This document shows, piece after piece, positions 16,680 through 58,260 of a DNA stretch of 64,000 bases (positions are counted from its first letter, which is position 1; every line of letters starts with the position of its first letter). The translations under genes were made by a program, and so were the position numbers. The DNA is from Thermoproteota archaeon. Lineage in GTDB: Archaea > Thermoproteota > Thermoprotei_A > Sulfolobales > NBVN01. The DNA is taken from the NCBI GenBank assembly GCA_030550455.1, contig JAUQPH010000007.1, positions 5,600 through 69,599 of the forward strand, in the 5' to 3' direction. Below the pieces are notes generated by a model that did no database searches, had not been told where the DNA came from, and saw only the letters and a program-made list of their open reading frames with translations.

Positions 16680-16953
16680 CCTCGTGAAACTGTTTAGTTT
16701 TTCATATCTGTTTGTATCGGTTGGTATTGATCGGAAACTTTATAAACACCTTGATATATGTAGAGGTACTTCGATGAGGGATCGAGAGCTGTTTGATAGT
16801 GTAGATGGTGGCTCTCCCCGAGACATCTAAGATGTGGGGTGCTAGGAGTCGCCCTGAACGCCCCCAAGGGTGATGCAAACCCAAGACCAATGCGGGGGAA
16901 AGAGATGAGGCTATGAAACCAACCGATATAAACCTACATCAGAGCTGAACCCC
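16680..16953 (-). repeat. Dispersed repeat family, copy 1 (subfamily A)
   Basis: The reverse complement aligns almost end to end with 45891-46167 and 50499-50757. Confidence 0.85.
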
Positions 16954-21449: not shown

Positions 21450-21725
21450 CCTCGCGCAACTGTTTCAGGTCTACGTAGGTTTATAATAGTTAACACTTTA
21501 TCAAAATCGCTCTTGCCCACAACGCTGGTACGTAGTGAAGACTAAAGTGGGCAGGACATCTAACGCCAAGATGTGGTAGTTTCCTCACGGTCGGGAATTT
21601 GAGGTAGTTTATGAGGGGGGCTGTAGGTTGGGTCACTCCGAGCGGTAGAGGCCGAAACGGAGCCTCCGATGTAAGGGGTTAGGGTTTCATGTTAGTTGAT
21701 GTGGTTTGATGTTAATCCTCAGCTT
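21450..21725 (-). repeat. Dispersed repeat family, copy 2 (subfamily B). The boundary at 21725 is approximate.
   Basis: The reverse complement aligns with 57955-58260, for example ...CCGTGAGGAAACTACCACATCTTGGCGTTAGATGTCCTGCCCAC... and the terminal GAAACAGTTGCGCGAGG. Confidence 0.7.
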
Positions 21726-21982
21726 TAGAGACCTCAGTCAACCGTGATCAAGTACAGCAACAACTCGAGGGTAGGCATTTGTGGTTTTATAGTGAGAAAT
21801 GAAGTTGGAATGCTGTTGCGTGCTCCAACTCTCTCCTCAGAGCCTTGGGTGACGGGAGCAGTACTCTAAGCTACTCAGGGCTAGAGCTAGATGTGAGCTG
21901 CGTGTCGTTGGGCTCGAGCGGTGCCCATGGCTCCTGCGTTGAGTGGTTGGTAGCCACAGTGAAGAGTGAATGAAAGGCATAA

Positions 21983-22018
21983 CCCACCCTAGGGAAACTT
22001 ACAGAAACCTAGGGTGGG
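21983..22018 (-). terminator. Perfect 11-bp hairpin downstream of pgk
   Basis: CCCACCCTAGG-14 nt-CCTAGGGTGGG lies 20 nt beyond the pgk stop. Confidence 0.35.
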
Positions 22019-22037
22019 AAACGGTTAGGTTAATCTA

Positions 22038-42307: not shown

Positions 42308-42386
42308 TGGTGCGGCGGCCGGGATTTGAACCCGGGATCTCCGGCGTGGCAGGCCGGCGTCCTAGACCAGGCTAGACGACCGCCGC
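42308..42386 (-). tRNA. tRNA-Gly(GCC), CCA encoded
   Basis: The reverse complement folds as a cloverleaf: acceptor GCGGCGG/CCGCCGC, anticodon arm CCGGC-CUGCCAC-GCCGG, T arm CCGGG-TTCAAAT-CCCGG, discriminator A, then CCA. Confidence 0.9.
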
Positions 42387-42412
42387 CATATCTTTTTTAG
42401 TGGTTTAGTATT

Positions 42413-43132
42413 TTAGCTTGTTTCCCCCAGTTCTCTGAGGACTTCTACGAGTTTTCGAAGGTCGTTTATGAGGTACGCTGATGCGCCCAGTCTTACTACA
42501 CCTATCGGGGAGTCTCGCTTGATTAAGACTGCTCTAGCTCCAGCTATTAGGGCACCCGCTAGGTCGTTCTCCGGAGAGTCTCCCACGTGGACTATCTCCC
42601 CAACTGACACCCCCAGCTTTCTAGCTACGTACTCGAAAACTTCTCTACTAGGTTTCTGAATACCTACTTCATCTGAGAACACCGTTAGGTCGAAGTACTT
42701 GAGTAACCCGTTCTTGTAGAGGAAGTACCTCGTGACCATCCCGGGCCAGAACATGACGTTTCCTAGCGCCACAGTAGCGTATCCACTAGCTCTAACGGCC
42801 TCTAGAGCTTCAGCTGCGTCTAGATACGCTAGCTCAGAGATCTCGGGCTCATCGACACTCATCGCTAGAGCTTGGAAGAGCTGCTCTACAGTTATCTTGA
42901 GCTCTCTAGAGAAGAACTCGGCCGACTCTATGACTACCCTACTAAAGCCCCCACCCAACCTAACCGCAAGAGCTTTTCTGTAAGTAGTTAGAATCAGCTC
43001 GAATACCTCTTCATACCTTTTACCGCAGAGGAGAGAGACCTTCCTCGATAGAATAGAGTAAAACTTAGTTAGATCTAGGAGAGTACCCCATATATCGAAA
43101 GACACCACCTTCAAGACTTCCACCAACAACAC
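42413..43132 (-). CDS. HAD-superfamily hydrolase
   Basis: Motif I SFDIWGTLL and motif IV GDSPENDLAGA. Confidence 0.75.
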   Translation of the reverse strand: MLLVEVLKVVSFDIWGTLLDLTKFYSILSRKVSLLCGKRYEEVFELILTTYRKALAVRLGGGFSRVVIESAEFFSRELKITVEQLFQALAMSVDEPEISELAYLDAAEALEAVRASGYATVALGNVMFWPGMVTRYFLYKNGLLKYFDLTVFSDEVGIQKPSREVFEYVARKLGVSVGEIVHVGDSPENDLAGALIAGARAVLIKRDSPIGVVRLGASAYLINDLRKLVEVLRELGETS

Positions 43133-43750
43133 TACTACCCAAAGAATAATACTAACTACTACAGCAGCTAGCGAGGAGACTCGCCTCGCAGTGGCCGTAC
43201 ACCCCGAACCCTATTAGCTCTTGAGTACACAGCTCGAGACCAGACGGTACTTGAGTGTGGTTCGAGCTACTCTACGAAGGTTGCTAAGCTCTCCCGCTCT
43301 GGAGTAGTCATGGAGTGTGGGGTAAGATTGGTAGCACTGGAAGCCCACCGAGCCACTGCGATAAAGGACACTTGGACGCAGTAGTCGAAGCTAAGAAGAA
43401 GGAAGTAGCAGTAGAGAAGCTTATTCAGGAACTCGAGCGAGTAGGCTATGAACTACGCAGACCTAAATGCTTTAAGAAGTGCTAGAGTATTTCCTCAGGA
43501 TTTAGTGGGAGAAAGTTCATCAGCTCTCCTCAATCTACTGTTAGACCTTCAGCTACTAGAGACTAGTTTGCTCTATATCTGTAAGGCTGTTTATCGAGAG
43601 TCTCCGCCTATGTCTCAAGTCGGAGGTCTCTCATTAAGGGATCGATGTAGAGTCTACACTCAGATCTCTATATAGATACCATTCAAAGTACGAAATATTC
43701 TTTCTAGCAAAATTCGCGGGTTTGAATAAGCACTCTACACAGACCAGTCC

Positions 43751-44161
43751 TTGTATGTTTCCCGTAGCTCTATAGTAAGACATATATGTTCTCGTAGTAA
43801 AGCCTTAGGGGTGCGTATGTCTAACCCTGAGGTTAGTGAAGAGGAGAGAATCTGGGGCTTTATAGCGTGGCTAATACCGCTAGTCGGTGGGGTACTAGTC
43901 TTAGTCCTAAAGCCTGGCTATAGGTTTGCGAAGCACTGGGCCCACCTATCTATATCCTTCTTTATAGCGATAGTGCTCCTAGGGGTAGTCTCAGCTGTTA
44001 TAGGGTTGATACCCTTCATAGGGTGGGTCATCTCTACACTACTGTGGATTGCTGTAGTAATAGTATGGATCGTAGGTATAGTGAAGTCTCTCGGCAAAGA
44101 GCTATGGAAACCCCCCGTAATATACGACCTAGCTAAGGTCCTAGGTATAGAGAGGATCTGA
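43751..44161 (+). CDS. Small membrane protein (DUF4870-like)
   Basis: EEERIWGFIAWLIPLVGGVLVLVL followed by two more TM helices. The likely true start is the ATG at 43817. Confidence 0.5.
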   Translation: MYVSRSSIVRHICSRSKALGVRMSNPEVSEEERIWGFIAWLIPLVGGVLVLVLKPGYRFAKHWAHLSISFFIAIVLLGVVSAVIGLIPFIGWVISTLLWIAVVIVWIVGIVKSLGKELWKPPVIYDLAKVLGIERI

Positions 44162-44652
44162 GCAGGAGTACCGCAAGAAGTTTTTCTCCTCAAATAACCC
44201 GCAGGCTTGTTAGTGCGTAGAGCTATAGCTACTTACTGAGTAAACCATGTGAAGAACTCGGTCCTCAAGCTAGTTCATCATGCGGATTTAATGTGTTGAT
44301 CGAACATCCCTGATCTAAACGGGATGTTCTATCATTGTGACCAGAAGCGTTTATACTGGAAGCTTTCGTGTTCTCCGGGCTTAATGATTTTAGTGTGCTT
44401 GGTTCGTATTATTTTGAAGTTGTTTAAGGTTAATCGTGGGTTTCATCGACGTGGAAAGGCTCTTTACGGGTTTGTGTTGCCGAGTTCTACTTCTTCATGG
44501 AGTGTGATATCTAGGAGTATTCCATGTGATGGTTAATGCATACGAAGGGTTGCTATCAGGTTTAACTCTGTATAGACATGTACTTAGATGCTCTTGGTGT
44601 TTACCCAGTTTAGAACAGAGTAGTTATTACCCTCTTCTACTAATTAACTACT

Positions 44653-45612
44653 GTGCATGGTGCATTAATAGTGTTTCCTCGGAACTCTTCCGTATGGATG
44701 TTTGTGCTTGCTCTCGTATTATCAACTGTACTCACGGTAGCTCTATTCTACACTACTTTTGAAGTACCAGTACTTTTGGATAAGGTGCTTCACCAGTACT
44801 TCCCCGAAGTATTCTACGATGTGGAAGCTGTAGAAAGTGTTCTCAGCGTTCTGAGACCCGTTGGCTACGCGACATTAGCAATAATCACTGCTTTAATAAT
44901 ACTGGGTTTTACGATTAAGAAGAGTATTCTAGCTTCTCTAGGTTCTTTAGTCCTCTATATCCCTACGTTTGGTTATTTTGCGTACGCTATGTTCTTTCTA
45001 ACGGGTCTAGGGGTCTTAAGAGCTCTCTGGCTACCACTCCTTGAGCTCTCTCCTTCGACTTTAAAGCTGGGGTGTGTAGTGTATCTACCCTTCTCGTATG
45101 TTCCACACGCACCTCTCGTAGGGCTGGTTATTACGTTTATCGGTCTCTTCGTGTTTCTGCTGGGTGTAACTACGTGGCTCTATGGAAGATTTAAAGGATA
45201 CGAAATCGTAGACTTCTGGGTTTACAGACATAGTAGGCACCCCCAGTACCTTGGATTCATACTTTGGAGCTACGGTCTACTAATATTCGTAAGCAACAAG
45301 GTCTACGTGAGAGGAGCATTTACAACACCACCAGCACTCATATGGCTTACATCATCAATGCTCGTAATAGGAATAGCTCTATTCGAAGAGCTTGAGATGA
45401 GAAAAAGATATGGGGTAAGATATGAGGAGTACTGTAAGAAAACTCCGTTTATGGTCCCCCTGCCAGGAATACTAACTAGAGCTATAAAAACACCCCTGAG
45501 GTTCGCAGGTGGATATCTAAGAAGTATGAGAGGAATAGCTCTTGCGATAACCCTATACGCAGCTATACTCATCGCAATCTCCTACGTTCTCATGTTGATG
45601 TCACTGTGTTAG
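44653..45612 (+). CDS. Isoprenylcysteine carboxyl / phospholipid methyltransferase-family membrane protein
   Basis: 319 aa polytopic protein with YRHSRHPQYLGF...EELEMRKRYGVRYEEY. Confidence 0.65.
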   Translation: MHGALIVFPRNSSVWMFVLALVLSTVLTVALFYTTFEVPVLLDKVLHQYFPEVFYDVEAVESVLSVLRPVGYATLAIITALIILGFTIKKSILASLGSLVLYIPTFGYFAYAMFFLTGLGVLRALWLPLLELSPSTLKLGCVVYLPFSYVPHAPLVGLVITFIGLFVFLLGVTTWLYGRFKGYEIVDFWVYRHSRHPQYLGFILWSYGLLIFVSNKVYVRGAFTTPPALIWLTSSMLVIGIALFEELEMRKRYGVRYEEYCKKTPFMVPLPGILTRAIKTPLRFAGGYLRSMRGIALAITLYAAILIAISYVLMLMSLC

Positions 45613-45890
45613 TACTAAATCATTCGAAAGAGTCATACTAGGAGGCAACAAAAGTACATTGGTAATCCTATATCTCCTCGTAGCAACATCTATTTGCCTA
45701 CGTCGACCGCTTAGATTAACTAGTCTTCATAAGAAACTCAACGGTACTTCATGGAGTTACCTTAATAGCGCCGATTTCTCACAGTATCTTAATTCTAGTT
45801 TTTATTAAGAGGTTGAAAGTTGTGTAAACGTAGGCCGAAGAACAGGGGTATTAATGTGCTGAAGCGAATGCGTATGTTTTATTGAGTTAT

Positions 45891-46167
45891 GGGGTTCAGC
45901 TCTGATATAGGTTTATATCGGTTGGTTTCATCGCCTCACCTCTGTTCCCCCGCATAGGTCTTGAGTTTGCACCACCCTTGGGGGCGTTCAGGGCGACTCC
46001 TAGCACCCCACATCTTAGATGTCTCGGGGGAGCCGCCATCCACAGCACTACAGCGGCTCTCGATCCCTCATCGAAGTACCTCTACATACATCGCTGTATA
46101 AGGTGTCTATAAGCGTTTCTATTAATACCAACCAAACAGATATGAGAAACGAAACAGCTTCACAAGG
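45891..46167 (+). repeat. Dispersed repeat family, copy 3 (subfamily A)
   Basis: Starts GGGGTTCAGCTCTGAT and ends GAAACAGCTTCACAAGG. Near-identical to the reverse complement of 16680-16953. Confidence 0.85.
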
Positions 46168-46362
46168 CATACGTGTTTACTAAGAATATGAACAGGCGCT
46201 GAGGGCTGGGTCGAACCCTTTGCTTTTTCCGTACGGGGCTTTCTCTGCTTTACGTTTGCGGCTCTTACTACGTGTTTACTGCTTGACGCTCTCGAGCTGT
46301 TGGTATACAGCACGTAGCTTAGCTTAAAGACTTGCGTTGTATTCTTACTTGGGTAGTGATTA

Positions 46363-46776
46363 TTGCTTGACGAGAGTGAGTTCGTGAGGTGGATTAAGAG
46401 TGCGTTAAGAACTCTTGAGTCTGCTAGAGTTGACCACGCTCACGGGTTTTATAGCTGGGCGTGCTTTAAGGCGCACCAAGCGGCTGAGAAAGCGCTTAAA
46501 GCACTGTTGTGGGGGTTGGGGAGTCCGCGCGTAGGTCATTCACTACTGGTCCTCCTCTCAGAGTTAGGTAACTTGTTGGGTGAGATACCTGAGGGCGTTA
46601 GAGAGTCCTGCGTGAGGTTGAATAAGCACTATATACCGACGAGGTACCCGGACGTCTGGAGTGAGGGCATACCTGAGGAACAGTACTCAGAGAAGGAGTC
46701 TTTAGAAGCTATAACTATGGCTGAAGAGGTAGTAAAGTGGGTGGAAGATACTTGGAAGTCATTGAGGAGAGAGTAA
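46363..46776 (+). CDS. HEPN-domain protein (toxin of a HEPN-MNT pair)
   Basis: 137 aa with WACFKAHQAAEKALKAL, RVGHSL (R-x4-H) and IPTRYP. Confidence 0.8.
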   Translation: MLDESEFVRWIKSALRTLESARVDHAHGFYSWACFKAHQAAEKALKALLWGLGSPRVGHSLLVLLSELGNLLGEIPEGVRESCVRLNKHYIPTRYPDVWSEGIPEEQYSEKESLEAITMAEEVVKWVEDTWKSLRRE

Positions 46777-47138
46777 GGAAGCGTGACTTATACGTTAAGA
46801 AGGCTCAAGAGTTTGCTGAATGCGCAGTACGCAAACTGAGAGACTCGGCAGTACTGATTTACGGCAGTGTGTCGAGAGGAGACTTCAACGAGTGGAGCGA
46901 TATAGACGTTCTCATAGTAACGCGAGAAGCGATCCCCCAGAGACCAACCGAGAGACTCGATGTACTGTACGACTGTACGAAGGAAAACCCATTAGTAGAG
47001 CCAGTAGTAATAACTCTCGATGAACTATGCAAGCTCCTCGCAAAGAAGAACCCGCTAGTAGTTGAGGCGCTGAGAAAAGGGATAGTTTTGATAGATAGAC
47101 TAGGTTTAAGAGACCTAATTAGCACTCTAAACCGCTAA
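46737..47138 (+). CDS. Minimal nucleotidyltransferase (MNT, antitoxin partner)
   Basis: 133 aa with YGSVSRGDFNEWSDIDVLIV (GS-x-RGD ... D-x-D). Overlaps the HEPN gene by 40 nt. Confidence 0.8.
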   Translation: MGGRYLEVIEERVRKRDLYVKKAQEFAECAVRKLRDSAVLIYGSVSRGDFNEWSDIDVLIVTREAIPQRPTERLDVLYDCTKENPLVEPVVITLDELCKLLAKKNPLVVEALRKGIVLIDRLGLRDLISTLNR

Positions 47139-47382
47139 CACTATAATGCGTGCATCAAGAGGCTAAATACGGTATTGCTGGAAGTAGGTCACACGCTTTC
47201 AACATAGTGATAGAGAAGGGCTTAACTGAGGTCACTAGGGAGGTTGAGTACTGGGATAGCATCTACAGAAGGATAGAGGAGCTAGAGAAGCAAGGATACA
47301 AACTAGGACATGGTGGCTTAAACTAGGTCCCTAATAGAGGAGAGAGCAAGGTAGACCTAACGTTATGTTATTGATTAGATAA

Positions 47383-47756
47383 TACACATAGACACCAACT
47401 TAATTGTATCTATATTGATGAAGCTGTTCCCGATTACGAGAAAGCTGTTGAGCTAGTTAAAGCAGTAAAAGATAGGAAAGCCGTATCCAGGTTAACACTT
47501 GTAGAACTAGCATCTGTTTTCTTGAGAGCTGGACTAGAAGAACCCCAGCTCCGGCGCTCTACTCTATAGAAGCATTAAAACGGATAGAGTTCAAGGAGCT
47601 TTTGAACCAAACAGTAAAATACGCACTACTCTAAGGCTTAGAACACCACCTCCTCTACACCTAGCAGCAAGCTTACTAGCCGAATGCGGAAAGTTCGCTA
47701 CAATAGATACAAATATAATCAAGGAATCCGACATCATCTTAAAACACTATTCATAG
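47383..47756 (+). pseudogene. Decayed PIN-domain (VapC-like) gene
   Basis: PIN-like pieces lie in different frames: IHIDTNLIVSIL, then ...SRLTLVELASVFLRAGLEEP (stop), then PLHLAAASLLAECGKFATIDTNIIKE. A ~60-codon ORF at about 47150-47332 could be its antitoxin. Confidence 0.5.
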
Positions 47757-47913
47757 AGGTACTAACACCAAAGGCTTAACTCTATAAACACTAACTATGT
47801 TTAAACTACAGCAACATCTAGTAATAGGCTTTAAGCATTTGCGTTATTCGCTTATCAAGAATAGATTATTATCAGGCTATAGTTTTTCTTCCTCACTTCT
47901 TGAAGGAGACTTG

Positions 47914-48393
47914 TTAAGTGATGTAGCTAGAGTTTAATCCTTCTTCTAGTGCTACTTGGTGGAGCTTCTTATCTGCGACTAGGAATTCGCCTGCGTTTAT
48001 TGATTTTGCTGAGGCTATCTGTAGAGCATCTGCTTGGTATATGTGGTGTTTCTCGATGATTTTCCAGGCTATTCTAAGCGTAGATAATTTAACTGGTACA
48101 GTAACCAGGTACCCAAGCTTAGTAAGCCTTAGAGTTTCACTTAAGAATCGTTTCTTAACCACTTGGTAGTCCTCAGCTGTAATGATCTCTCTTGTCCTCG
48201 ACTTATCCAGAACTCCGAGTACTTCACCGATATTCCAGAGACTGAAAGATATCTTGATTAAGCCATTGTATGCCTGCACGTATAGCTGTCGTATATATTC
48301 GCTACCGGGTTCTTCGATATACCTCTTAACAATGACGCTACTGTCCAAGTAAACGACTTTCTCTCTCATTCCGCATCTCTCTAACAAGTTCAC
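47914..48393 (-). CDS. vapC: PIN-domain ribonuclease VapC
   Basis: 159 aa with N-terminal VVYLDSSVIVKRY and later YQADALQIASA. Confidence 0.75.
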   Translation of the reverse strand: MNLLERCGMREKVVYLDSSVIVKRYIEEPGSEYIRQLYVQAYNGLIKISFSLWNIGEVLGVLDKSRTREIITAEDYQVVKKRFLSETLRLTKLGYLVTVPVKLSTLRIAWKIIEKHHIYQADALQIASAKSINAGEFLVADKKLHQVALEEGLNSSYIT

Positions 48394-48619
48394 TAACGGG
48401 GGCCTTCGCCTTAACAGGTTTGAAATTCAATTCCGTATCTAACTCATTAACGAGCTCTCTAATCACGGCCTCTAGATCCACCATAAGCTCTTCTCTAAGA
48501 AGACCTTCTAGAGCTTCACTAAGCTCTTGATCCCTTGAAGAAGCAATCTTTTTGAACTCCTTCCAGAGATCCTCATCAACATAAATACTAGTCTTAACCT
48601 TACCCATTCCGATTCCCAT
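48338..48619 (-). CDS. vapB: VapB-like antitoxin (ribbon-helix-helix type)
   Basis: 93 aa with KVKTSIYVDEDLWKEFKKIA, upstream of and overlapping vapC. The start may be the internal ATG a few codons downstream. Confidence 0.55.
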   Translation of the reverse strand: MGIGMGKVKTSIYVDEDLWKEFKKIASSRDQELSEALEGLLREELMVDLEAVIRELVNELDTELNFKPVKAKAPVSELVREMRNERESRLLGQ

Positions 48620-49221
48620 ACCTAGATATACTAATATCGGTATATAAGTCTAGATGTTACAACCTCTATACTAACTTACTTTCCTATCCATCAAGCCATT
48701 CACACTAAACCTCATATAGATCGACTAACCGACAACATACTTAACTGCCAGAAATCCGCATAATCAGCTCATCAACATAGCACATCTCCCACCGGCACTC
48801 TCTTGACCTCTACAAGAAGAAGTACGCAACGCTCGAGTGGAACCTCAAGTACGTTGATAAAGTAGGAGACCTTATCAGCAGAGAAAAATATGAAGCCTTG
48901 AAAAGAAATTGCAAGACCTCAGAAAACAAGAAAAGTTTATTGATATGCTTAGTCTTGAGTAAAACCTTGGTAGTCTGTGATGAGAAGAAAAGTCCCAACG
49001 GTAAGATAGTCAAAGTTTGTGTTAAAATCCTTGAGGACTTGATGAAAAGAGCTGTGGTTTCAGAAGATTTCTTCGGGGGTCCTGTGGAAAACTTCGAAAG
49101 AACTTATTCAAGAACTTACCAAGATTGGAGTGAGGAGAAGTGCCTATCGTAGTTTGTGAGTTAGCTTTCATATTGTGCGCCGGAAGATTCACCTTAACTT
49201 CTATTGTATAGTTTCTAGGAT

Positions 49222-49488
49222 TCATGCGACAGCTCTCCATGAAGGTGGCTTAGTAGTGCTTCGATAGCTCTGGGTGTTAGCATTCTCGAGCCTCCTAGAG
49301 CTCTTAATCTTCCTTTCCATGCTTAAATGATGACGTATACAGTCAACGACTTGAATACTCTGGATAGACCGTAGATTAGCGATGTGGTAGCTTCTCAAGG
49401 CATGTATGACTCCATGGAACAGGTCTAACCCAAAGGCAACCAATGCCGGTGGACAGAATTCCGTAGAGTATGGAGTAGAGTATGTCAA
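49222..49488 (-). pseudogene. C-terminal fragment of a tyrosine recombinase
   Basis: ...HALRSYHIANL...VVDCIRHHLS...NTQSY fits the box II pattern H-x-L-R...A..L...(G)H...Y. No N-terminal part continues in frame. Confidence 0.35.
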
Positions 49489-49706
49489 TTGAGGAGTTTA
49501 TTACGTACTCCTTTCCACGATTCCTTGCCTTACTGATGTTTGTTGTTGCGATATAGACGACATTGGATAGAGCTTAAGTACCTAGCTTGAGGCCGTCCTA
49601 ACGGTCGGCACTCACCCATGCGATAGCTCTAGAGTTGTTATCTGTGGGTATTGTTACTCACTGTATTTATTAGGTAGTGTGGGTTGGAACTTATTGGTAG
49701 TCTGAA

Positions 49707-49970
49707 ATGCCCGAAAGTCTGACAGTACGTGTTGGTCGGAAGAGGACTATAGTTATTCCGAAGAAGGTTGCTGATGCGTTGGGTATCGATGAGGGGAGTA
49801 GAGTTGTGCTTGTCGTTAGAGATAACAAGCTGGAGGTTATACCATTACCGGATGCTATAACTCTCTCGCTTAAGGGTAAGAAGGTTGCGAGAGTAACTCT
49901 GAAAGAACTTGAGGAGGAGAGCATACGTGAGCAGAAGAAGTATATTGCGGAAACCGAGAGTACTAGTTGA
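49707..49970 (+). CDS. vapB: AbrB/SpoVT-type antitoxin VapB
   Basis: 87 aa with VGRKRTIVIPKKVADALGIDEGSRVVLV. Confidence 0.75.
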   Translation: MPESLTVRVGRKRTIVIPKKVADALGIDEGSRVVLVVRDNKLEVIPLPDAITLSLKGKKVARVTLKELEEESIREQKKYIAETESTS

Positions 49971-50388
49971 TACAACATTCCTCTTACCAGCTCTAGGCGT
50001 AGAGATCGAGGAAGACGCTTTAAAAGCTATAGCTCTGTTTAGAAAGCTAGAGATCTACTACTTAGAAGTCGGAATCCTAGAGGCAGTGTGGAAAGTACTC
50101 AAAGCTATACCACTAGAACATCTCGAAGTTGTCAAAGTGGGTCTAGACTCTATAAGAAACACGTACAACACACTAGACATACCCGTAGAAGCATACATAG
50201 AGGCCTACAGAATCTATAACGAGGGCCATAAAGACTACATAGACGCTCTATACTACTCTACAGCTAAGACAACCGATACTCCATGGCTAACAATAGACGA
50301 AGAGTTCATCGAGTTCCTGAAACAACACAACTACAAGATAGAGGGGATTATATACACACCAGAAGACCTTAAGTCAATCATACGATAA
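49909..50388 (+). CDS. vapC: PIN-domain ribonuclease VapC
   Basis: RVLVDTTFLLPALG near the N-terminus. The true start is probably the in-frame GTG at 49927 or TTG at 49945. Confidence 0.7.
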   Translation: MRRRAYVSRRSILRKPRVLVDTTFLLPALGVEIEEDALKAIALFRKLEIYYLEVGILEAVWKVLKAIPLEHLEVVKVGLDSIRNTYNTLDIPVEAYIEAYRIYNEGHKDYIDALYYSTAKTTDTPWLTIDEEFIEFLKQHNYKIEGIIYTPEDLKSIIR

Positions 50389-50498
50389 GAGGCTTTTCAA
50401 GTTAGTTAAAAACACACTCACGTACTCAAATAACATTAAAGTCGGGCTCGGCGATACTAGTCGGAAAGTCAACGTAGAAACAAGGTCTCAAACATCTA

Positions 50499-50757
50499 GG
50501 GGTTCAGCTCTGATGTAGGTTTATATTGGTTGATTTCATCGCCTCATCTCTTTTCCCCGCATTCCGCTCGGGTTTTCATCAGGCTTAGGGGCGTTCAGGG
50601 CGACCCCGGGCACCCCACATCTTGAGTAACTCAGAGAGAGCTCGCTTCATAGGGCTCTCGACCCCTCATCGAACTATTTCCCGTACCACTACGTAGAGTA
50701 CTTATAAGCGCTTCCATATACATCAACTAAAGAGATACCAGCGTAAAATACGCATAC
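50499..50757 (+). repeat. Dispersed repeat family, copy 4 (subfamily A, 3' part more diverged)
   Basis: GGGGTTCAGCTCTGATGTAGGTTTATATTGGTTGATTTCATCGCCTCATCTC... aligns with copies 1 and 3. Confidence 0.8.
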
Positions 50758-51208
50758 GAACTATAGTTAAGCATGATTAAGTCATTAGAGCAGAGCCTTA
50801 GATACATTAATATTGATAATCCATGCAAGTGCTCTACTGTAGTCGGGTTGAACCGTGTGTGGTTTCAGGGGTGTTGTGATAATATCCATGTACTTCGGTG
50901 GGTTTACGCGTAGGTTCGAAATAGGTACTCAGTGGAAGCGAGATTAACTATTGTTTAAACCTGTGGACAGCACTCAACTCGACTTTGATGTTGGGTAATT
51001 GATTGTTTCTCGAGAATCCTTGGAGGTAGAATTGGGGAAACCAGGTTGAGTAACTTGGAGTGGTTTAATGCTTAGTTTCATCACATTAAAACATGACGTG
51101 TTGACTGAGAACACTTGTTCAATTAGGGTTCAATCCGAGATCGTTGTTCCCGAGTTATCAGTGTAGGGTTAAAACTGTGGTATACATGGATACTATTGAA
51201 GTGGTAGT

Positions 51209-51607
51209 ATGCCGGTGAGAGACGAAGTACTCAACTGGTTAGCAGAAGCTCAAGCTGACCTCAGGCATGCTGAAATGAGTATTAGTACAGGAGGATACAA
51301 CTGGGCTTGTTTCATAGCTCAGCAAGCTGCTGAGAAAGCTCTGAAAGCCCTAGTACTCCACGTTCTAGGTGAGTACCCGCGGGGTCACGACCTCGTCAAG
51401 CTCTACCGTAGAGTCAAGGGCTCTACGGCTGTTTCACTTAGTGAGGTTGCACTCGCTAAGCTATCAGCGTACTACACTCTAGCTAGATACCCCAACGCTG
51501 GCTTAGAGAGACCTTCAGAGGAGATCTTGAGAGAACACGCCGAGGAAGCCGTTTCGATCGCCAGAGGTGTACTGGATGAGGTCTCAAAGGCTATTCAAGA
51601 CCCATAG
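51209..51607 (+). CDS. HEPN-domain protein (second HEPN-MNT pair)
   Basis: 132 aa with WACFIAQQAAEKALKAL, PRGHDL and LARYP. Confidence 0.8.
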   Translation: MPVRDEVLNWLAEAQADLRHAEMSISTGGYNWACFIAQQAAEKALKALVLHVLGEYPRGHDLVKLYRRVKGSTAVSLSEVALAKLSAYYTLARYPNAGLERPSEEILREHAEEAVSIARGVLDEVSKAIQDP

Positions 51608-51899
51608 TGACATTGTAGAGATCCTCGGGAGGCTGGCTAGAGAGATCAACGCCACGGTTTACCTGTTTGGAAGCTACGCTAGAGGTGATCACACGCTTGA
51701 AAGCGATGTTGACATAGTAGTTGTATGCGAGTGCTTCAAGAGCATGAACTACCCGAATAGAGTTGCGTTCGTGAGAACAAAACTACCACCCGACATCGGG
51801 TTCGACATAGTAGCCTTAACACCGGAGGAGTTCAAGAGTAGATCGAGCAAGGCGTTCTTCAGAGACGTATCAAAGCACTGGGTAGAGATAAAACCGTAA
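51567..51899 (+). CDS. Minimal nucleotidyltransferase (MNT)
   Basis: 110 aa with LFGSYARGDHTLESDVDIVVV. Overlaps the HEPN gene by 41 nt. Confidence 0.8.
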   Translation: MYWMRSQRLFKTHSDIVEILGRLAREINATVYLFGSYARGDHTLESDVDIVVVCECFKSMNYPNRVAFVRTKLPPDIGFDIVALTPEEFKSRSSKAFFRDVSKHWVEIKP

Positions 51900-52291
51900 A
51901 AGCACGCGGTCACCGGCCTACAGTCACCTCAAGTTTAAGGCTTTCTAGACGAAGAGTCCTCTGCAGCGATATGTACTCACTAGTTTGTAGACCTTGCTAA
52001 ACTTAATCACGTCAAGAGCTCTAAGCATTCTAGAGAGACCTACAAAAACCTAGCACACTAAAACAGTTGCGAACCCCTCTCCCTACCGTGCTTATCCACT
52101 ACGTACTGAAGTATCCTAGCTCTATCCTCTTTACCCAAAGCTTTTAGGTTCAGCCCATCGTACTAAGGCTTCACAGCCTCACTCCCAACATTTTCTCCTA
52201 GTATTATCGTACAGTAATATTAGTTAATCGTTTCACGGTGCTTGCGTGGGGTCTGAAACAATGACTTATAAACCATCACCACGCATGGGAG

Positions 52292-52347
52292 TGGCGCCGG
52301 GGGCGGGATTTGAACCCGCGCGGGGTGTTCCCCCACCGGCTTAGCAG
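52292..52347 (-). tRNA. 3' portion only of a class II tRNA (Ser-like, loop CUGCUAA = anticodon GCU). Probable att site.
   Basis: The reverse complement reads CTGCTAA-GCCGG-T-GGGGGAACACCCC(long variable arm)-GC-GCGGG-TTCAAAT-CCCGC-CCCCGGC-G-CCA. No 5' acceptor, D arm or 5' anticodon-stem strand lies upstream of it. Confidence 0.65.
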
Positions 52348-52384
52348 AGCGAAATCTAGTGAGGAAGTTACCCCTAATGACCGC

Positions 52385-52392
52385 TTTATAAA
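52385..52392. promoter_or_regulatory. Palindromic TATA box (TTTATAAA) between the tRNA fragment and the integrase
   Basis: Its first base is 42 nt upstream of the integrase ATG (52427). On the other strand its near edge is 37 nt upstream of the tRNA-like sequence. Confidence 0.4.
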
Positions 52393-52426
52393 CCCTGCGA
52401 CCCCTACCCATTACTATTGGGGTGCT

Positions 52427-53377
52427 ATGGCAACTCCCATGCTCAACGTACTCCGTATTAAAGATTCGGAAGGAAATATCGTCGTTGAGGTATCAAGTAG
52501 AAGAGATATTAAGTTGCTTGGGGAGCTCTTGAGGAGTCTGGGGGTAACTGTAGCCGGTGGTAAGCGTGAACGATTCATAGAGTTTAATGAGATGTTCATG
52601 GAGTACTTAATAAAGGATAGGGGGCAGCAGGAGAAGACAGCTAAGTGCTACATGAACTACCTTAGACGGCTTGACGGTAAGCCCCTAACCTACGGGACCT
52701 TCCTCGAGATATCTGGTAGTAGGTGGATGGTTAAGTGTGTGAGGCTGTATATAGACTTCCTCGAGAAATCCGGGGAGATATCCGAGGATGAGGCTGAGAG
52801 GCTTAGGAAGATATTTAAGATTAGAAGTGGTGCTAAGATCATTAAGAAATACCACATCGAATACAGCAAGATAATCGAAGTACTGGAGAGAGTTGAGGTA
52901 GGTACTCTCTACTGGCTAGTCTTAAGAGTACTCTACTTTAGTGGTGCTAGACTGAGTGAAGTAGTCAAGATGATCCAGGATTTTGATGAGAGAGAGCTAA
53001 CCTGCTTTCAAGACAGGGGCTTCTGCCGCTATTACCTAGTGTGGAGTAGGGGTAAGAAGAGGTGTGAGTGGATCTACTTCCCAGCAACACTTACTGAATA
53101 TCTCAAGATGTGGAGGGGGAAGATCGGGAAGTACGATACTGTGAGGGATACTCTCTACGACTACTACGGCGTTAAGGTGAAAGACTTTCGAAAGCTGTTC
53201 TATCGAGTATGTCGGGATGTAGGGGTTGAGGGAGCGATTTGCGACTTCTACCAATCAAGAATATCGGGTTTAAGCATAGGTGACCTACACTATGACGACA
53301 TAGTGACTCGAGCAGACAAGCAGTACACTGAGCTAGCCGCCCGACTGAGTAAACTACTAGAGAGGGGTAGTAGTTGA
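52427..53377 (+). CDS. int: Tyrosine recombinase / integrase (archaeal SSV- or pNOB8-like)
   Basis: Box I-like FSGARLSEVVKM, with C-terminal Tyr candidates in LHYDDIVTRADKQYTEL. It directly abuts a tRNA 3' fragment. The frame stays open upstream to 52265, across the tRNA fragment. Confidence 0.7.
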   Translation: MATPMLNVLRIKDSEGNIVVEVSSRRDIKLLGELLRSLGVTVAGGKRERFIEFNEMFMEYLIKDRGQQEKTAKCYMNYLRRLDGKPLTYGTFLEISGSRWMVKCVRLYIDFLEKSGEISEDEAERLRKIFKIRSGAKIIKKYHIEYSKIIEVLERVEVGTLYWLVLRVLYFSGARLSEVVKMIQDFDERELTCFQDRGFCRYYLVWSRGKKRCEWIYFPATLTEYLKMWRGKIGKYDTVRDTLYDYYGVKVKDFRKLFYRVCRDVGVEGAICDFYQSRISGLSIGDLHYDDIVTRADKQYTELAARLSKLLERGSS

Positions 53378-57319: not shown

Positions 57320-57767
57320 GCTGTCTTCCTTGGGATTTAAGGAGGTCTTATAGAGGATTTAGTGGTTGGAGTCCGGTGTACTGTACGAGCCTCTGAGAAG
57401 TTTCCTCGAGGTGTACAGTACAGCCGGGTCTACATGATCCAGTCGAGAACGCGGTGATATGTGGAAGCTGTTTGGTTTGTTTTATAACAACTGAGGTAAT
57501 GCGTAGGAATCGGGGTCGAGGTTGAAGGTAGCGAGGTACTTCAAGACGTGGGTAGCCGTGCTTGTCTCGCTTTCCCTGACTCTAGCTACTCTACGGATCG
57601 CGGCAGCTTCTAGCGCTCTCCACTATGCGCTAACCGATGTTCTCGATAGAGCTCTGCGACTCCTCAGCGCTACATCGTTAGCCCCCCTGCTGTTGAGTGG
57701 TACTGAACCAAGTGGTTGGTGAAAGAGCTTGGCTACCAACTCCCGAATCAGCAAACCTAACGAACTC

Positions 57768-57868
57768 ACTGGAAATTTCCAGTAGCTGGAAGCTATCCAC
57801 GTAAGAGAATGAGGGGGTTCTGATGGACTGACCACCATCAACTTTCCAGTAACTGGAAAGTTTCCAGT
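57768..57868. promoter_or_regulatory. Cluster of TTCCAGT half-site palindromes (ORB-like protein-binding array)
   Basis: ACTGGAAATTTCCAGT is a perfect 16-nt palindrome at 57768-57783, followed by AGCTGGAAGC. CTTTCCAGTAACTGGAAAGTTTCCAGT lies at 57842-57868. Further sites are GTTCCAGTGG at 58371-58380 and ACTTTCCAG at 58391-58399. Confidence 0.55.
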
Positions 57869-57954
57869 CTGGCGATAAGCAGAAGGCTGGCGTCGAGTAG
57901 AACCACAGCAGGACCTCAGTCGAGAAAAGAGAGTGAGTAGAGGACAAAGTATTT

Positions 57955-58260
57955 GGGGGTTTGGATTTTATGTGGATTAATGTAGTTTGATGCCAACCCC
58001 TAGCTTCACAAACCTAGGGCACCTTTCATCGGCATCCGCACCATCGGTCTCCACCCATTCAGGGTAACCCTAACCCGCAGCTCACCCTCATATGGTTCAG
58101 GTTCACAGCCGTGGAGAAACCCCCATCCTGGCGTTGGATGCCCCTACCCACTCAGGTCTCCACCACAAACCCGCATCGCGGACGGGCTCATCATCTCACG
58201 GTAACACAACTTACATCAAACCCTACAAACCTTCATGAAACCCGAAACAGCTGCGCGAGG
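57955..58260 (+). repeat. Dispersed repeat family, copy 5 (subfamily B)
   Basis: Starts GGGGTTTGG and ends GAAACAGCTGCGCGAGG. Aligns with the reverse complement of 21450-21725. Confidence 0.7.

What the first reader, a model, noticed from the sequence alone, without database searches (positions are those of the whole stretch)
45891..46167. Dispersed 260-310 bp intergenic repeat family with a GC-rich core: five copies in 64 kb
Blocks at 16680-16953 (-), 45891-46167 (+) and 50499-50757 (+) are near-identical. A more diverged pair sits at 21450-21725 (-) and 57955-58260 (+).

All five share:
- a GGGGTT start;
- GGTTT(C/G)AT-type motifs toward both ends;
- a GC-rich core, for example CCCTTGGGGGCGTTCAGGGCGACTCCTAGCACCCCACATCTTAGATGTCTCGGGG;
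- the 3' end GAAACAG(C/T)T(G/T)C(A/G)C(A/G)AGG.

Every copy is intergenic. The one ORF over 60 aa inside a copy (16702-16890) is not preserved in the others. No transposase lies nearby. I could not match this to any RNA or IS family I know. Candidate explanations are a multi-copy structured ncRNA gene, a MITE-like element, or a protein-binding module.
Basis: seen in the sequence. Interest (0 to 1): 0.8.

Follow-up and report, generated by a model that had tools for sequence, protein, structure and literature searches.

The report
Gene-less copies of a TnpB transposon
The five intergenic repeats are cut-down, gene-less copies of a 1.5-kb archaeal insertion sequence that encodes the RNA-guided nuclease TnpB; they keep its two ends and its guide-RNA scaffold, which makes them an ordinary though well-preserved kind of mobile DNA.

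Summary
The repeats are real. There are three A-type copies: A1 and A3 are 90% identical, and A2 is about 80% identical to both. There is also a diverged B pair.

They are not a free-standing ncRNA gene family. They are non-autonomous deletion derivatives of the PATE type (MITE-like, but with no terminal inverted repeats and no target duplication). The parent is a 1470-1529 bp tnpB-only insertion sequence of the IS200/IS605/IS607 superfamily. I found full-length copies in Desulfurococcaceae, Thermosphaera, Ignisphaera and related hot-spring MAGs and metagenomes.

The functional strand is opposite to the one the finder used. His "3' end" (GAAACAG..AGG) is the left end (CCTnnnnnAACTGTTT...). His "GGGGTT start" is the right end (...GAGCTGAACCCC).

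Each A copy keeps:
- about 45-75 nt of the left end;
- a hairpin derived from the start of tnpB;
- the last ~130 nt, which in full-length elements overlap the 3' end of tnpB.

Those last ~130 nt have a conserved, covarying, strand-specific secondary structure, that is, an omega-RNA scaffold.

One related strain has an empty site (...GTATG-CC-ATAAC...). Together with the flanks, it shows precise insertion with no duplication beyond a shared CC. The termini are CC...CC and the left flank ends in G.

Expression, use of the RNA by TnpB in trans, and the identity of the mobilising transposase (serine IS607-type favoured) are inferred, not shown. This is a new member of a known kind.

The parts
45891..46167 (-). 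Copy A1: a complete non-autonomous element of 277 bp. It reads left end to right end on the minus strand.
   Evidence: The left-end and right-end HMMs and the covariance model all hit it. It is 82-90% identical to the last 126 nt of the full-length elements. An empty site is found in L060.
46116..46167 (-). A1 left end (CCTTGTGAAGCTGTTTCG...), with GGTTT-type subterminal motifs.
   Evidence: Left-end HMM E 9e-9. blastn aligns it to positions 9-34 of the full-length elements.
46030..46059 (-). A1 internal hairpin (GAGCCGC...GCGGCTC). In A3 the equivalent region aligns to the first ~60 nt of the tnpB reading frame of full-length elements.
   Evidence: A3 positions 84-143 match L044 full-length positions 259-319 at 76%. 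The hairpin is shared by short copies from several MAGs.
45891..46025 (-). A1 right end, an omega-RNA-like scaffold of ~135 nt ending ...GAGCTGAACCCC. It includes a remnant of TnpB residues ~336-412.
   Evidence: Covariance model R1 scores 153 bits, though this copy was in the training set. tblastn finds the remnant.
45871..45890 (-). Predicted guide portion of the A1 omega-RNA, i.e. the flank just beyond the right end. Inferred only.
   Evidence: By analogy with TnpB omega-RNAs (PMC10055086; 10.1101/2023.11.20.567912). No expression data.
16680..16953 (+). Copy A3: a complete element of 274 bp. Left end 16680-16738, right-end scaffold 16820-16953.
   Evidence: Left-end HMM E 1e-13 and right-end HMM E 4e-37. 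Model R1 scores 158 bits. It is present in all five same-species contigs fetched.
50499..50757 (-). Copy A2. The right-end scaffold at 50499-50632 is intact, but the left-end terminus has decayed, so the copy is probably immobile.
   Evidence: Right-end HMM E 1e-38 with no left-end HMM hit. Model R1 scores 158 bits. It is 88-94% identical to full-length right ends. The gene spacing is the same in all three contigs shown, which suggests the copy is fixed.
57956..58260 (-). Copy B2: a 305-bp element of a diverged subfamily. Left end 58207-58260, diverged right end 57956-58073 ending ...ATCCAAACCCC.
   Evidence: Left-end HMM E 9e-13 and right-end HMM E 6e-8. Model R1 scores 24.5 bits, E 9e-4. The same insertion occurs in MAG locus L045.
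21450..21678 (+). Copy B1: a B-type element with an intact left end (21450-21496) but no canonical right end.
   Evidence: Left-end HMM E 5e-7. nhmmer to B2 gives E 2e-13. No right-end hit.
21679..22031 (+). A related but different ("C-type") element fragment abutting B1. It has a 5'-truncated left-end-like segment at 21679-21723 and a terminal 11-bp hairpin end (...CCTAGGGTGGGAAAC).
   Evidence: Left-end HMM positions 15-59, E 6e-4. The region 21882-22034 is 72-79% identical to insertions in L054, L059 and L060. Sequence is shown.

Best explanation
The repeats are non-autonomous, internally deleted derivatives of a ~1.5-kb tnpB-only insertion sequence of the IS200/IS605/IS607 superfamily. These are PATE-type elements: no terminal inverted repeats, no target duplication, and too short to encode a protein.

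Read on the tnpB sense strand, each element has:
- a left end, CC(T)nnnnnAACTGTTTCGGGTTTCATATAGGTTTAT...;
- in the A lineage, a hairpin left over from the first codons of tnpB;
- the last ~130 nt of the parent, ending ...ATATAAACCTAYATCAGAGCTGAACCCC.

That last part is the omega-RNA scaffold of the parent's TnpB nuclease.

Proposed working, inferred from this point on. A transposase supplied in trans binds the GGTTT-type subterminal motifs that lie in inverted orientation at both ends. It excises and inserts the element by exchange at a CC dinucleotide, next to a G. I favour an IS607-type serine recombinase for this role. The right end is transcribed together with about 16-20 nt of flanking DNA. 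The resulting omega-RNA can load onto TnpB made by full-length relatives. TnpB then cuts the empty site (..HG-CC + flank) after excision, so the element is restored by recombination.

Shown here: descent from the tnpB element, the boundaries, the lack of duplication, one empty site, and the conserved, covarying, strand-specific RNA structure.
Inferred: transcription, TnpB loading, the homing role, and the identity of the transposase.

The confidence given (0.88) is for the identity of the repeats as tnpB-element derivatives that carry the omega-RNA scaffold. The inferred working steps are less certain: about 0.6 for the RNA being made and used, and about 0.5 for a serine transposase.
For: 1. 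A degenerate 26-nt pattern from the finder's "5' end" hit 47 loci in 185,579 species genomes. All were hot-spring Thermoproteota MAGs, and every hit has a sharp boundary with unrelated flanks.
2. Pairing that end with the other end gives a bimodal length distribution over 37 unique complete insertions: 19 short (50-448 bp) and 18 long (1470-1529 bp).
3. The long ones carry a 399-412 aa ORF on the opposite strand. It matches PF07282 (Cas12f1-like TNB domain, E 2e-15), TIGR01766 above its cut-off, guided_TnpB at 94.8 bits, and solved Cas12f and TnpB structures in the PDB.
4. The window copies align to positions ~1-44 and to the last 126-135 nt of the full-length elements at 78-94% identity. They also hold TnpB C-terminal remnants.
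5. On 38 right ends, the four-helix structure is 93.8% paired, against 36-51% when the partners are slid. It has compensatory changes (CG/GC 18:17 and 18:18; UG/UA/GC/AU) and many G-U pairs that only work on the tnpB sense strand.
6. A covariance model found 50 matches in independently fetched metagenome loci. All lie on the tnpB strand, and nearly all sit at the 3' end of tnpB. The aligned set is 90.6% paired with compensatory changes at the same pairs.
7. No target duplication: 30 of 37 insertions have zero shared bases between the flanks. The left flank has G at -1 in 33 of 37 and never G at -2.
8. Empty site: strain contig L060 reads TAAACACGTATG-CC-ATAACTCAATAA where the window holds A1.
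9. The same deletion junction and hairpin occur in short copies from at least 6 different MAG species, so the short form spreads as such.
10. Literature: the PATE concept and its origin by core deletion of IS605-type elements is in PMC3119063. PMC10055086 states that PATEs often encode omega-RNAs that need TnpB in trans.
Against: - There are no expression data, so the RNA and its guide are unproven here.
- None of the roughly 30 full-length relatives whose left end could be located carries a tnpA between that end and tnpB. No autonomous partner with the same ends was found, so the mobilising enzyme is unknown.
- No intact cognate tnpB lies in this 64-kb window, and I could not show one in the same genome.
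- Part of the right-end conservation could reflect cis requirements for transposition, or in full-length copies the overlapping TnpB C-terminal coding, rather than RNA function.
- The covarying helices split largely into two clades, so they may represent few independent events.
- The covariance-model alignment leans towards the model's own structure.
- A2 and B1 each lack one good end and are probably fossils.
- Only one empty site was found.
Confidence: 0.88

Rival explanations
1. Same element, but mobilised as single-stranded DNA by a Y1 tyrosine transposase (classical IS200/IS605 peel-and-paste). The near-terminal palindromes would be the hairpins that TnpA recognises, and HGCC a conventional TAM.
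For: Near-terminal palindromes exist in the consensus: ATATAGGTTTATAT in the left end and ATATAAACCTATAT in the right end. There is no target duplication, and a conserved base precedes the left end. PATEs were defined in this context (PMC3119063). About 25% of tnpB genes in general sit next to a Y1 tnpA, against about 8% next to a serine tnpA (PMC10055086).
Against: The two palindromes are reverse complements of each other: left-end positions 25-44 match the right end on the opposite strand. On any one strand their loops therefore differ (GGTT versus AACC), whereas to my knowledge Y1 TnpA acts on like hairpins on one strand. In many right ends the palindrome is broken on the sense strand (ACATAAACCTACAT) while the sequence motif is kept. 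Both termini and the empty site share the same dinucleotide CC, which is the IS607 signature (PMC6188088; 10.1101/2023.11.20.567912). No Y1 gene was seen in any locus, but I did not screen systematically.
Confidence: 0.25
2. The copies are inert fossils of decayed tnpB elements. They are no longer mobile, and the RNA part is neither made nor used; its conservation is just recent common descent.
For: A2 has lost its left-end terminus and B1 its right end. A3 appears fixed and A2 shows unchanged gene spacing in all same-species contigs shown. No cognate intact tnpB or tnpA lies in the window.
Against: The same short lineage, with the same deletion junction, occurs at unrelated sites in at least 6 MAG species, so it multiplied after the deletion. 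The A1 site is polymorphic between strains. All helices of the scaffold are intact in A1, A2 and A3, with compensatory rather than random changes across the family.
Confidence: 0.2
3. An independent multi-copy structured ncRNA gene, or a cis-regulatory leader of the downstream HEPN-nucleotidyltransferase operons, unrelated to transposons.
For: A1 and A2 both lie 200-450 bp upstream of HEPN plus nucleotidyltransferase gene pairs, in the same relative orientation. The region has a conserved secondary structure.
Against: Full-length relatives carry tnpB between the same two ends. The other copies sit next to unrelated genes: hypD and a formamidase-family gene for A3, and a solute-binding protein gene for B1. 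The structured strand points away from the HEPN genes. Upstream flanks share no promoter-like conserved sequence. Rfam has nothing.
Confidence: 0.03

Closest known systems
PATEs (palindrome-associated transposable elements) of Haloquadratum walsbyi and the PATE-like elements of Geobacillus stearothermophilus (PMC3119063; PMC10055086)
   Same: They are gene-less and a few hundred bp long. They have no terminal inverted repeats and no target duplication. They carry near-terminal palindromes, and their ends are shared with tnpB (IS605-type) elements. They arise by deletion of the core, are heterogeneous in length, and often carry the omega-RNA region.
   Different: A different phylum and habitat (hyperthermophilic Thermoproteota). 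The palindromes at the two ends are inverted relative to each other. The termini are CC...CC with a single CC at the empty site, which points to an IS607-like exchange rather than a Y1 mechanism. The A lineage also keeps a hairpin from the first codons of tnpB.
IS607-family elements (IS607, IS1535, ISC1926, CboIStron) (PMC6188088; 10.1101/2023.11.20.567912)
   Same: No inverted terminal repeats and no target duplication. The same dinucleotide occurs at both termini and at the unoccupied target. There are several short subterminal sequence motifs, with inverted-repeat similarity between the ends. tnpB has an omega-RNA ending at the right-end boundary. The motif next to the left end and the last bases of the right end share the core dinucleotide but differ just upstream: here HG-CC versus CC-CC, there TG-GG versus TC-GG.
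   Different: No serine tnpA lies between the located left end and tnpB in any of the roughly 30 full-length copies where that end could be placed. The dinucleotide on the tnpB sense strand is CC, not GG. The TnpB scores no better on the IS607_TnpB model than on the IS200_TnpB model (39 versus 46 bits, both far below cut-off).
SMN1, the 320-bp non-autonomous element of Sulfolobus islandicus, mobilised by the ISC1733 transposase (PMC3718332)
   Same: A crenarchaeal, ~300-bp, gene-less element that depends on a transposase made elsewhere. To my knowledge, which I did not check here, ISC1733 is an orfA (serine recombinase) plus orfB (TnpB) element.
   Different: I did not compare sequences. PMC3718332 groups SMN1 with MITEs.
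TnpB omega-RNAs / sense-overlapping transcripts of IS1341-type genes in archaea (Gomes-Filho et al. 2015, cited in PMC12558985; PMC10055086)
   Same: The position: the last ~130 nt of the element, overlapping the 3' end of tnpB and ending at the right-end boundary. The structure is conserved, with a long-range closing helix.
   Different: Sequence and fold match no Rfam family. Expression is not shown. In the window the scaffold occurs without its protein gene.

Membership tests
PATE (non-autonomous IS605-type derivative) | Too short to encode a transposase or nuclease; no conserved ORF | tested here: met
   The short copies are 50-448 bp. Only remnants of the TnpB C-terminus are present. ORFs are not conserved between copies.
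PATE (non-autonomous IS605-type derivative) | No terminal inverted repeats | tested here: met
   The termini are CCTnnnnnAACTGTTT... and ...GAGCTGAACCCC. Only subterminal segments are inverted repeats.
PATE (non-autonomous IS605-type derivative) | Palindromes close to both termini | tested here: met
   Left end ATATAGGTTTATAT, about 25 nt in. Right end ATATAAACCTATAT, about 14 nt in. The palindromes are imperfect in many copies, including the left end of A1.
PATE (non-autonomous IS605-type derivative) | No target-site duplication | tested here: met
   30 of 37 unique insertions share 0 nt between the flanks, and the rest share 1-2 nt. The empty site in L060 differs from the filled site only by the element, with one shared CC.
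PATE (non-autonomous IS605-type derivative) | Ends shared with full-length tnpB-carrying elements | tested here: met
   18 full-length elements of 1470-1529 bp have the same ends. Identity is 78-94% over the right end.
Classical MITE | Terminal inverted repeats plus target-site duplication matching a DDE transposon | tested here: not met
   Neither feature is present.
TnpB omega-RNA | Encoded at the 3' end of tnpB, on the same strand, ending at the right-end boundary | tested here: met
   In the full-length relatives, all 50 covariance-model hits lie on the tnpB strand and nearly all sit at its 3' end. In L024 the ORF stop is 5 nt from the boundary.
TnpB omega-RNA | Conserved secondary structure supported by covariation | tested here: met
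   93.8% and 90.6% of cells are paired, against 34-51% when slid. Compensatory changes occur in helices 2 and 4, and the G-U pairs are strand-specific. Caveat: the sequences are related, and the second alignment was fitted to the model.
TnpB omega-RNA | Transcribed, carries a guide from the flank, binds TnpB and directs cleavage next to a TAM | not testable with these tools
   No RNA-seq or biochemistry is available here.
IS607 family | Serine-recombinase TnpA in the autonomous element | tested here: not met
   No ORF lies between the left end and tnpB, which are a constant ~229-313 nt apart. An IS607-type tnpA plus tnpB does exist in one of these MAGs (L014; equivalog, 213 bits), but with different ends.
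IS607 family | The same core dinucleotide at both termini and at the unoccupied target; no TIR; no duplication | tested here: met
   CC at the start of the left end, at the end of the right end, and once in the empty site. On the tnpB sense strand the dinucleotide is CC rather than GG. Only one empty site was found.
IS607 family | Multiple short subterminal repeats that bind TnpA | tested here: inconclusive
   GGTTT(C/A)AT-type motifs recur near both ends in inverted orientation. Binding was not tested, and I did not measure their enrichment formally.
IS200/IS605 (Y1) family | Like hairpins at the left and right ends on the same strand, and a Y1 tnpA partner | tested here: not met
   The left-end and right-end palindromes are reverse complements of each other. 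No Y1 gene was seen, but I did not screen systematically.
TnpB protein family (for the full-length relatives) | RuvC-like nuclease with a zinc-ribbon (TNB) domain | tested here: met
   PF07282 E 2e-15 to 3e-14. TIGR01766 scores 61.7 bits against a cut-off of 32, and guided_TnpB scores 94.8 bits, just under its cut-off of 100. PDB hits are to Cas12f and TnpB chains. The motifs IDVNFD, VLENL and GDRDVVA are visible in the sequence; reading them as the catalytic triad rests on my knowledge.

The most novel reading that the evidence does not exclude
The tnpB-only elements and their gene-less derivatives in these hyperthermophiles may move without any conventional TnpA encoded with matching ends. 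Possible routes are an as yet unrecognised recombinase acting at a CC core, or TnpB/omega-RNA-driven homing alone. In that case the short elements would persist mainly as "guide-only" parasites, or domesticated guide genes, that borrow TnpB in trans.
Probability: 0.12. Interest if true: 0.65.

Novelty: new member of a known kind. Interest (0 to 1): 0.3.

Why it matters
This result turns an apparently mysterious five-copy intergenic repeat into an annotated mobile element. It also corrects the strand and the boundaries.

It adds a well-defined family to the catalogue of archaeal TnpB elements. The family comprises:
- the full-length IS;
- a short lineage that spreads on its own;
- a 135-nt omega-RNA model;
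- a candidate target motif, HG-CC.

The family comes from hyperthermophilic Desulfurococcaceae, Ignisphaera and relatives. That could interest people looking for compact thermostable RNA-guided nucleases.

For genome annotation, it warns that such repeats should be masked or labelled rather than called as novel ncRNA genes. It also shows that these elements mark sites of strain-level rearrangement in this lineage.

Tried and rejected
- **Rfam.** I searched at gathering and permissive thresholds. It returned only tRNA-Gly and sub-threshold noise.
- **Single-sequence folding.** z-scores were weak: -1.1 on the finder's strand and -2.1 on the opposite strand. That was not decisive alone, although the better strand turned out to be the right one.
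- **CRISPR leader, SRP or RNase P RNA, riboswitch or 5' leader of the HEPN operons.** I considered these and dropped them once the full-length tnpB elements appeared.
- **Terminal inverted repeats and target duplications.** I looked for both and found neither.
- **More empty sites.** Look-ups with flanking proteins found A3 filled in all contigs shown and A2's flanking gene spacing unchanged, so presumably filled. Two further look-ups found no record, probably because the gene caller chose different start codons.
- **A tnpA within the elements.** I found none. The IS607-type tnpA-tnpB in L014 and the tnpB in L058 belong to another lineage with different ends.
- **The covariance model on the window.** It found no copies beyond the known ones.
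- **Parent of the B subfamily.** I did not find one. Its right end occurs only once among 185,579 species genomes, at the same locus as in the window.

Full report
**1. Observation**

The five blocks exist where stated.

- nhmmer with each copy finds the three A copies with E 1e-33 to 1e-58: A1 45891-46167, A2 50499-50757, A3 16680-16953.
- The B pair (B1 21450-21725, B2 57955-58260) find each other with E 5e-10 to 2e-13.
- A and B are only weakly linked as whole sequences (E 0.01-0.1).
- They do share end motifs. The 3' motif GAAACAGYTKCRCRAGG occurs 4 times with up to 2 mismatches, against 0.02 expected.
- Global identities are 90% for A1/A3 and 79-80% for A2 against either. "Near-identical" is therefore too strong for A2.
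- B1 lacks the GGGGTT end, and A2 lacks the GAAACAG..AGG end.
- Rfam gives only tRNA-Gly in the window and nothing credible on the copies.
- All copies are intergenic.

**2. What it is**

I built a 26-nt degenerate pattern from the GGGGTT end of the A and B copies. About 0.1 chance matches were expected (my estimate). It hit 47 loci among 185,579 species-representative genomes. All were hot-spring MAGs labelled Thermosphaera, Desulfurococcus, Desulfurococcaceae, Ignisphaera, "Sulfolobales archaeon", Thermoproteota, and one Nezhaarchaeota contig.

In every case the similarity starts exactly at GGGGTTCAGCTC, and the flanks are unrelated.

I then looked for the other end motif downstream. This gave two length classes: about 190-450 bp and about 1496-1500 bp. 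Adding 54 metagenome loci fetched with the protein, I count 37 unique complete insertions: 19 short (50-448 bp) and 18 long (1470-1529 bp).

The long ones contain a single 399-412 aa ORF on the strand opposite to the finder's orientation. It is a TnpB:
- Pfam PF07282 (Cas12f1-like TNB domain), E 2e-15 to 3e-14;
- NCBIfam TIGR01766 above its cut-off, and guided_TnpB at 94.8 bits against a cut-off of 100;
- PDB sequence matches to Cas12f and TnpB chains.

tblastn with this protein finds C-terminal remnants (residues ~336-412) inside A1, A2 and A3. It finds no intact relative in the window.

**3. Anatomy on the correct strand**

Read in the tnpB sense, the element starts with the left end CC(T)nnnnnAACTGTTTCGGGTTTCATATAGGTTTAT... 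. This is the reverse complement of the finder's "3' end". It finishes with the right end ...ATATAAACCTAYATCAGAGCTGAACCCC, the reverse complement of his "GGGGTT start".

The window's copies align to three parts of the full-length elements:
- positions ~1-44;
- in A3, positions 259-319, which are the first codons of tnpB and form the GAGCC..GGCTC hairpin;
- the last 126-135 nt, at 78-94% identity.

They are therefore internal-deletion derivatives. Short copies from at least six different MAG species share the same junction and hairpin. The short form has therefore multiplied as such.

HMMs of the two ends give the state of each window copy:

| Copy | Left end | Right end |
|---|---|---|
| A1 | present | present |
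| A3 | present | present |
| B2 | present | present (diverged) |
| A2 | terminus lost | present |
| B1 | present | absent |

B1 is followed by a 5'-truncated left-end-like piece at 21679-21723. A different, related element then runs on to about 22031.

**4. The structured part**

I aligned the last 135 nt of 38 copies (A2 alignment). RNAalifold and a hand-refined four-helix structure show:
- a long-range closing helix (GAUGUG with YAYAUC);
- a hairpin (GGGUG/CRCCC);
- a two-part stem (CCCCCA/UG..GGGG, enclosing GGU/ACC or CCG/CGG).

93.8% of cells are paired, against 36-51% when the 3' partners are slid. Compensatory changes occur on both sides at columns 25/37, 26/36, 55/75 and 56/74 (for example CG:18 against GC:17). 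Many pairs are G-U: 34 of 38 at one position and 16 of 38 at another. These would be C-A mismatches on the other strand.

A covariance model built from this alignment finds only A1, A2, A3 and, weakly, B2 in the window.

In the independently fetched metagenome loci it finds 50 matches. All lie on the tnpB strand, and nearly all sit at the 3' end of tnpB. There the structure is 90.6% paired, with compensatory changes at the same pairs.

Position, strand, length and conservation are those of a TnpB omega-RNA scaffold (PMC10055086; 10.1101/2023.11.20.567912).

Caveats:
- The sequences are related.
- The covarying helices split largely into two clades.
- The second alignment is fitted to the model.

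**5. Insertion sites**

Among the 37 unique insertions there is no target duplication: 30 share 0 nt between the flanks. The base before the left end is G in 33 of 37, and the one before that is never G. The flank after the right end is not conserved.

A same-species contig (L060, GCA_038732035.1) reads TAAACACGTATG-CC-ATAACTCAATAA at the place where the window has ...GTATG-[CCTTGTG....GAACCCC]-ATAAC.... So the element is flanked by, or ends in, the same CC that occurs once in the empty site.

**6. Which transposase**

This is unresolved. In the roughly 30 full-length copies where the left end could be located, no tnpA lies between it and tnpB. The distance from the left end to the tnpB start is a constant ~229-313 nt. 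So even the "full-length" element is non-autonomous (IS1341-like).

Features that match the IS607 family as described in PMC6188088 and 10.1101/2023.11.20.567912:
- the same dinucleotide at both termini and in the empty target;
- no inverted terminal repeats and no duplication;
- several GGTTT(C/A)AT-type motifs near both ends, in inverted orientation;
- a left-flank motif (HG-CC) that differs from the end of the right end (CC-CC) just upstream of the core. This parallels TGGG versus TCGG in CboIStron.

Against a Y1 (IS200/IS605) mechanism, the near-terminal palindromes of the two ends are reverse complements of each other rather than like hairpins on one strand. The right-end palindrome is also often broken on the sense strand.

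An IS607-type tnpA (NCBIfam equivalog, 213 bits) next to a distant tnpB is present in one of these MAGs (L014), but its ends differ.

I favour a serine transposase acting in trans, at roughly even odds.

**7. How it most likely works**

- Shown: descent, ends, precise insertion, and the conserved RNA structure.
- Inferred: a transposase made elsewhere moves the element. The right end, transcribed into the flank, yields an omega-RNA. TnpB made by full-length relatives uses that RNA to cut the vacated site, so that the element is copied back.

[quoted passage not shown] PATEs and their origin by core deletion of IS605-type elements were defined in an archaeon in PMC3119063.

A2 and B1 are probably immobile fossils.

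**8. Comparison and novelty**

The closest known kind is the PATE. The mechanistic resemblance is to the IS607 family. SMN1 of Sulfolobus (PMC3718332) is a crenarchaeal precedent for a ~300-bp element mobilised in trans.

Nothing here is categorically new. It is a new, well-delimited member (a family) of a known kind. Two small twists are the CC core on the tnpB sense strand and the absence of any linked tnpA. No paper in the searchable library describes these elements in Desulfurococcales or Ignisphaera.

**9. Context**

A1 and A2 both lie upstream of HEPN plus nucleotidyltransferase pairs. However, the structured strand points away from those genes, and the other copies sit next to unrelated genes. 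I treat the shared position as coincidence within a variable, toxin-antitoxin-rich region.

The A1 neighbourhood differs between strains by inversion, deletion and further element insertions. This is typical of such elements.

Noticed in passing
window 21679-22031 (+); also L054 2037-2350, L059 1100-1390, L060 786-1107: A second, related repeat ("C-type"). One end is a perfect 11-bp hairpin (CCCACCCTAGG...CCTAGGGTGGG) followed by AAAC. In the window it abuts copy B1. In three other strains a relative is inserted about 50 bp from the A1 site. At that position the window is empty, and the junction shares GG(G).
   Followed up: partly
window 45847-46215 versus L060 700-795: The short segment that carries A1 is inverted in strain contig L060, which also lacks A1. 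The segment is bounded by GGG(G)/CCC.
   Followed up: partly
window 44270-46055 versus L054: Strain contig L054 lacks about 1.8 kb, comprising the DUF1295 membrane-protein gene and the right-end half of A1. It has about 130 bp of a different right-end variant instead. This looks like a rearrangement at the element.
   Followed up: no
window 42308-53377: A variable island. It holds tRNA-Gly(GCC) at 42308-42386 (-), two HEPN plus nucleotidyltransferase pairs (46363-47138 and 51209-51899), two PIN/antitoxin pairs (47914-48619 on the minus strand, and 49707-50388), and an archaeal integrase-like gene (52310-53377, PF16795). It may be an integrated element next to the tRNA.
   Followed up: no
L058 1-845, corresponding to just upstream of window 44708: One strain carries a tnpB of a different lineage (ending ...GGCAACCAC...) at a place where the window has none. 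The same kind of end follows the IS607-type tnpA-tnpB pair in L014.
   Followed up: partly
window 57760-57875: Repeated palindromic TTTCCAG/CTGGAAA motifs (for example ctggaaatttccag and ctggaaagtttccag) lie just upstream of copy B2.
   Followed up: no
L024 (Nezhaarchaeota MAG contig), L039, L063: The 3.1-kb contig assigned to a Nezhaarchaeota MAG carries the same insertion, with identical flanks, as a Desulfurococcaceae MAG and a metagenome contig. It is probably a mis-binned contig, so the family's reach into Nezhaarchaeota should not be trusted.
   Followed up: partly
full-length elements, e.g. L024 2604-2857, L021 2123-2376: A constant ~255-nt non-coding stretch lies between the left-end terminus and the tnpB start codon in nearly all full-length copies. 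That is long for this kind of element. I did not examine its content.
   Followed up: no
L030 5016-5065: A 50-bp "solo-ends" version: the right-end terminus is fused directly to the left-end terminus. This is the most extreme deletion derivative seen.
   Followed up: no
L079 versus L084: Two metagenome contigs hold near-identical 1512-bp elements with the same right flank but different left flanks. This may reflect recombination between copies or an assembly chimera.
   Followed up: no
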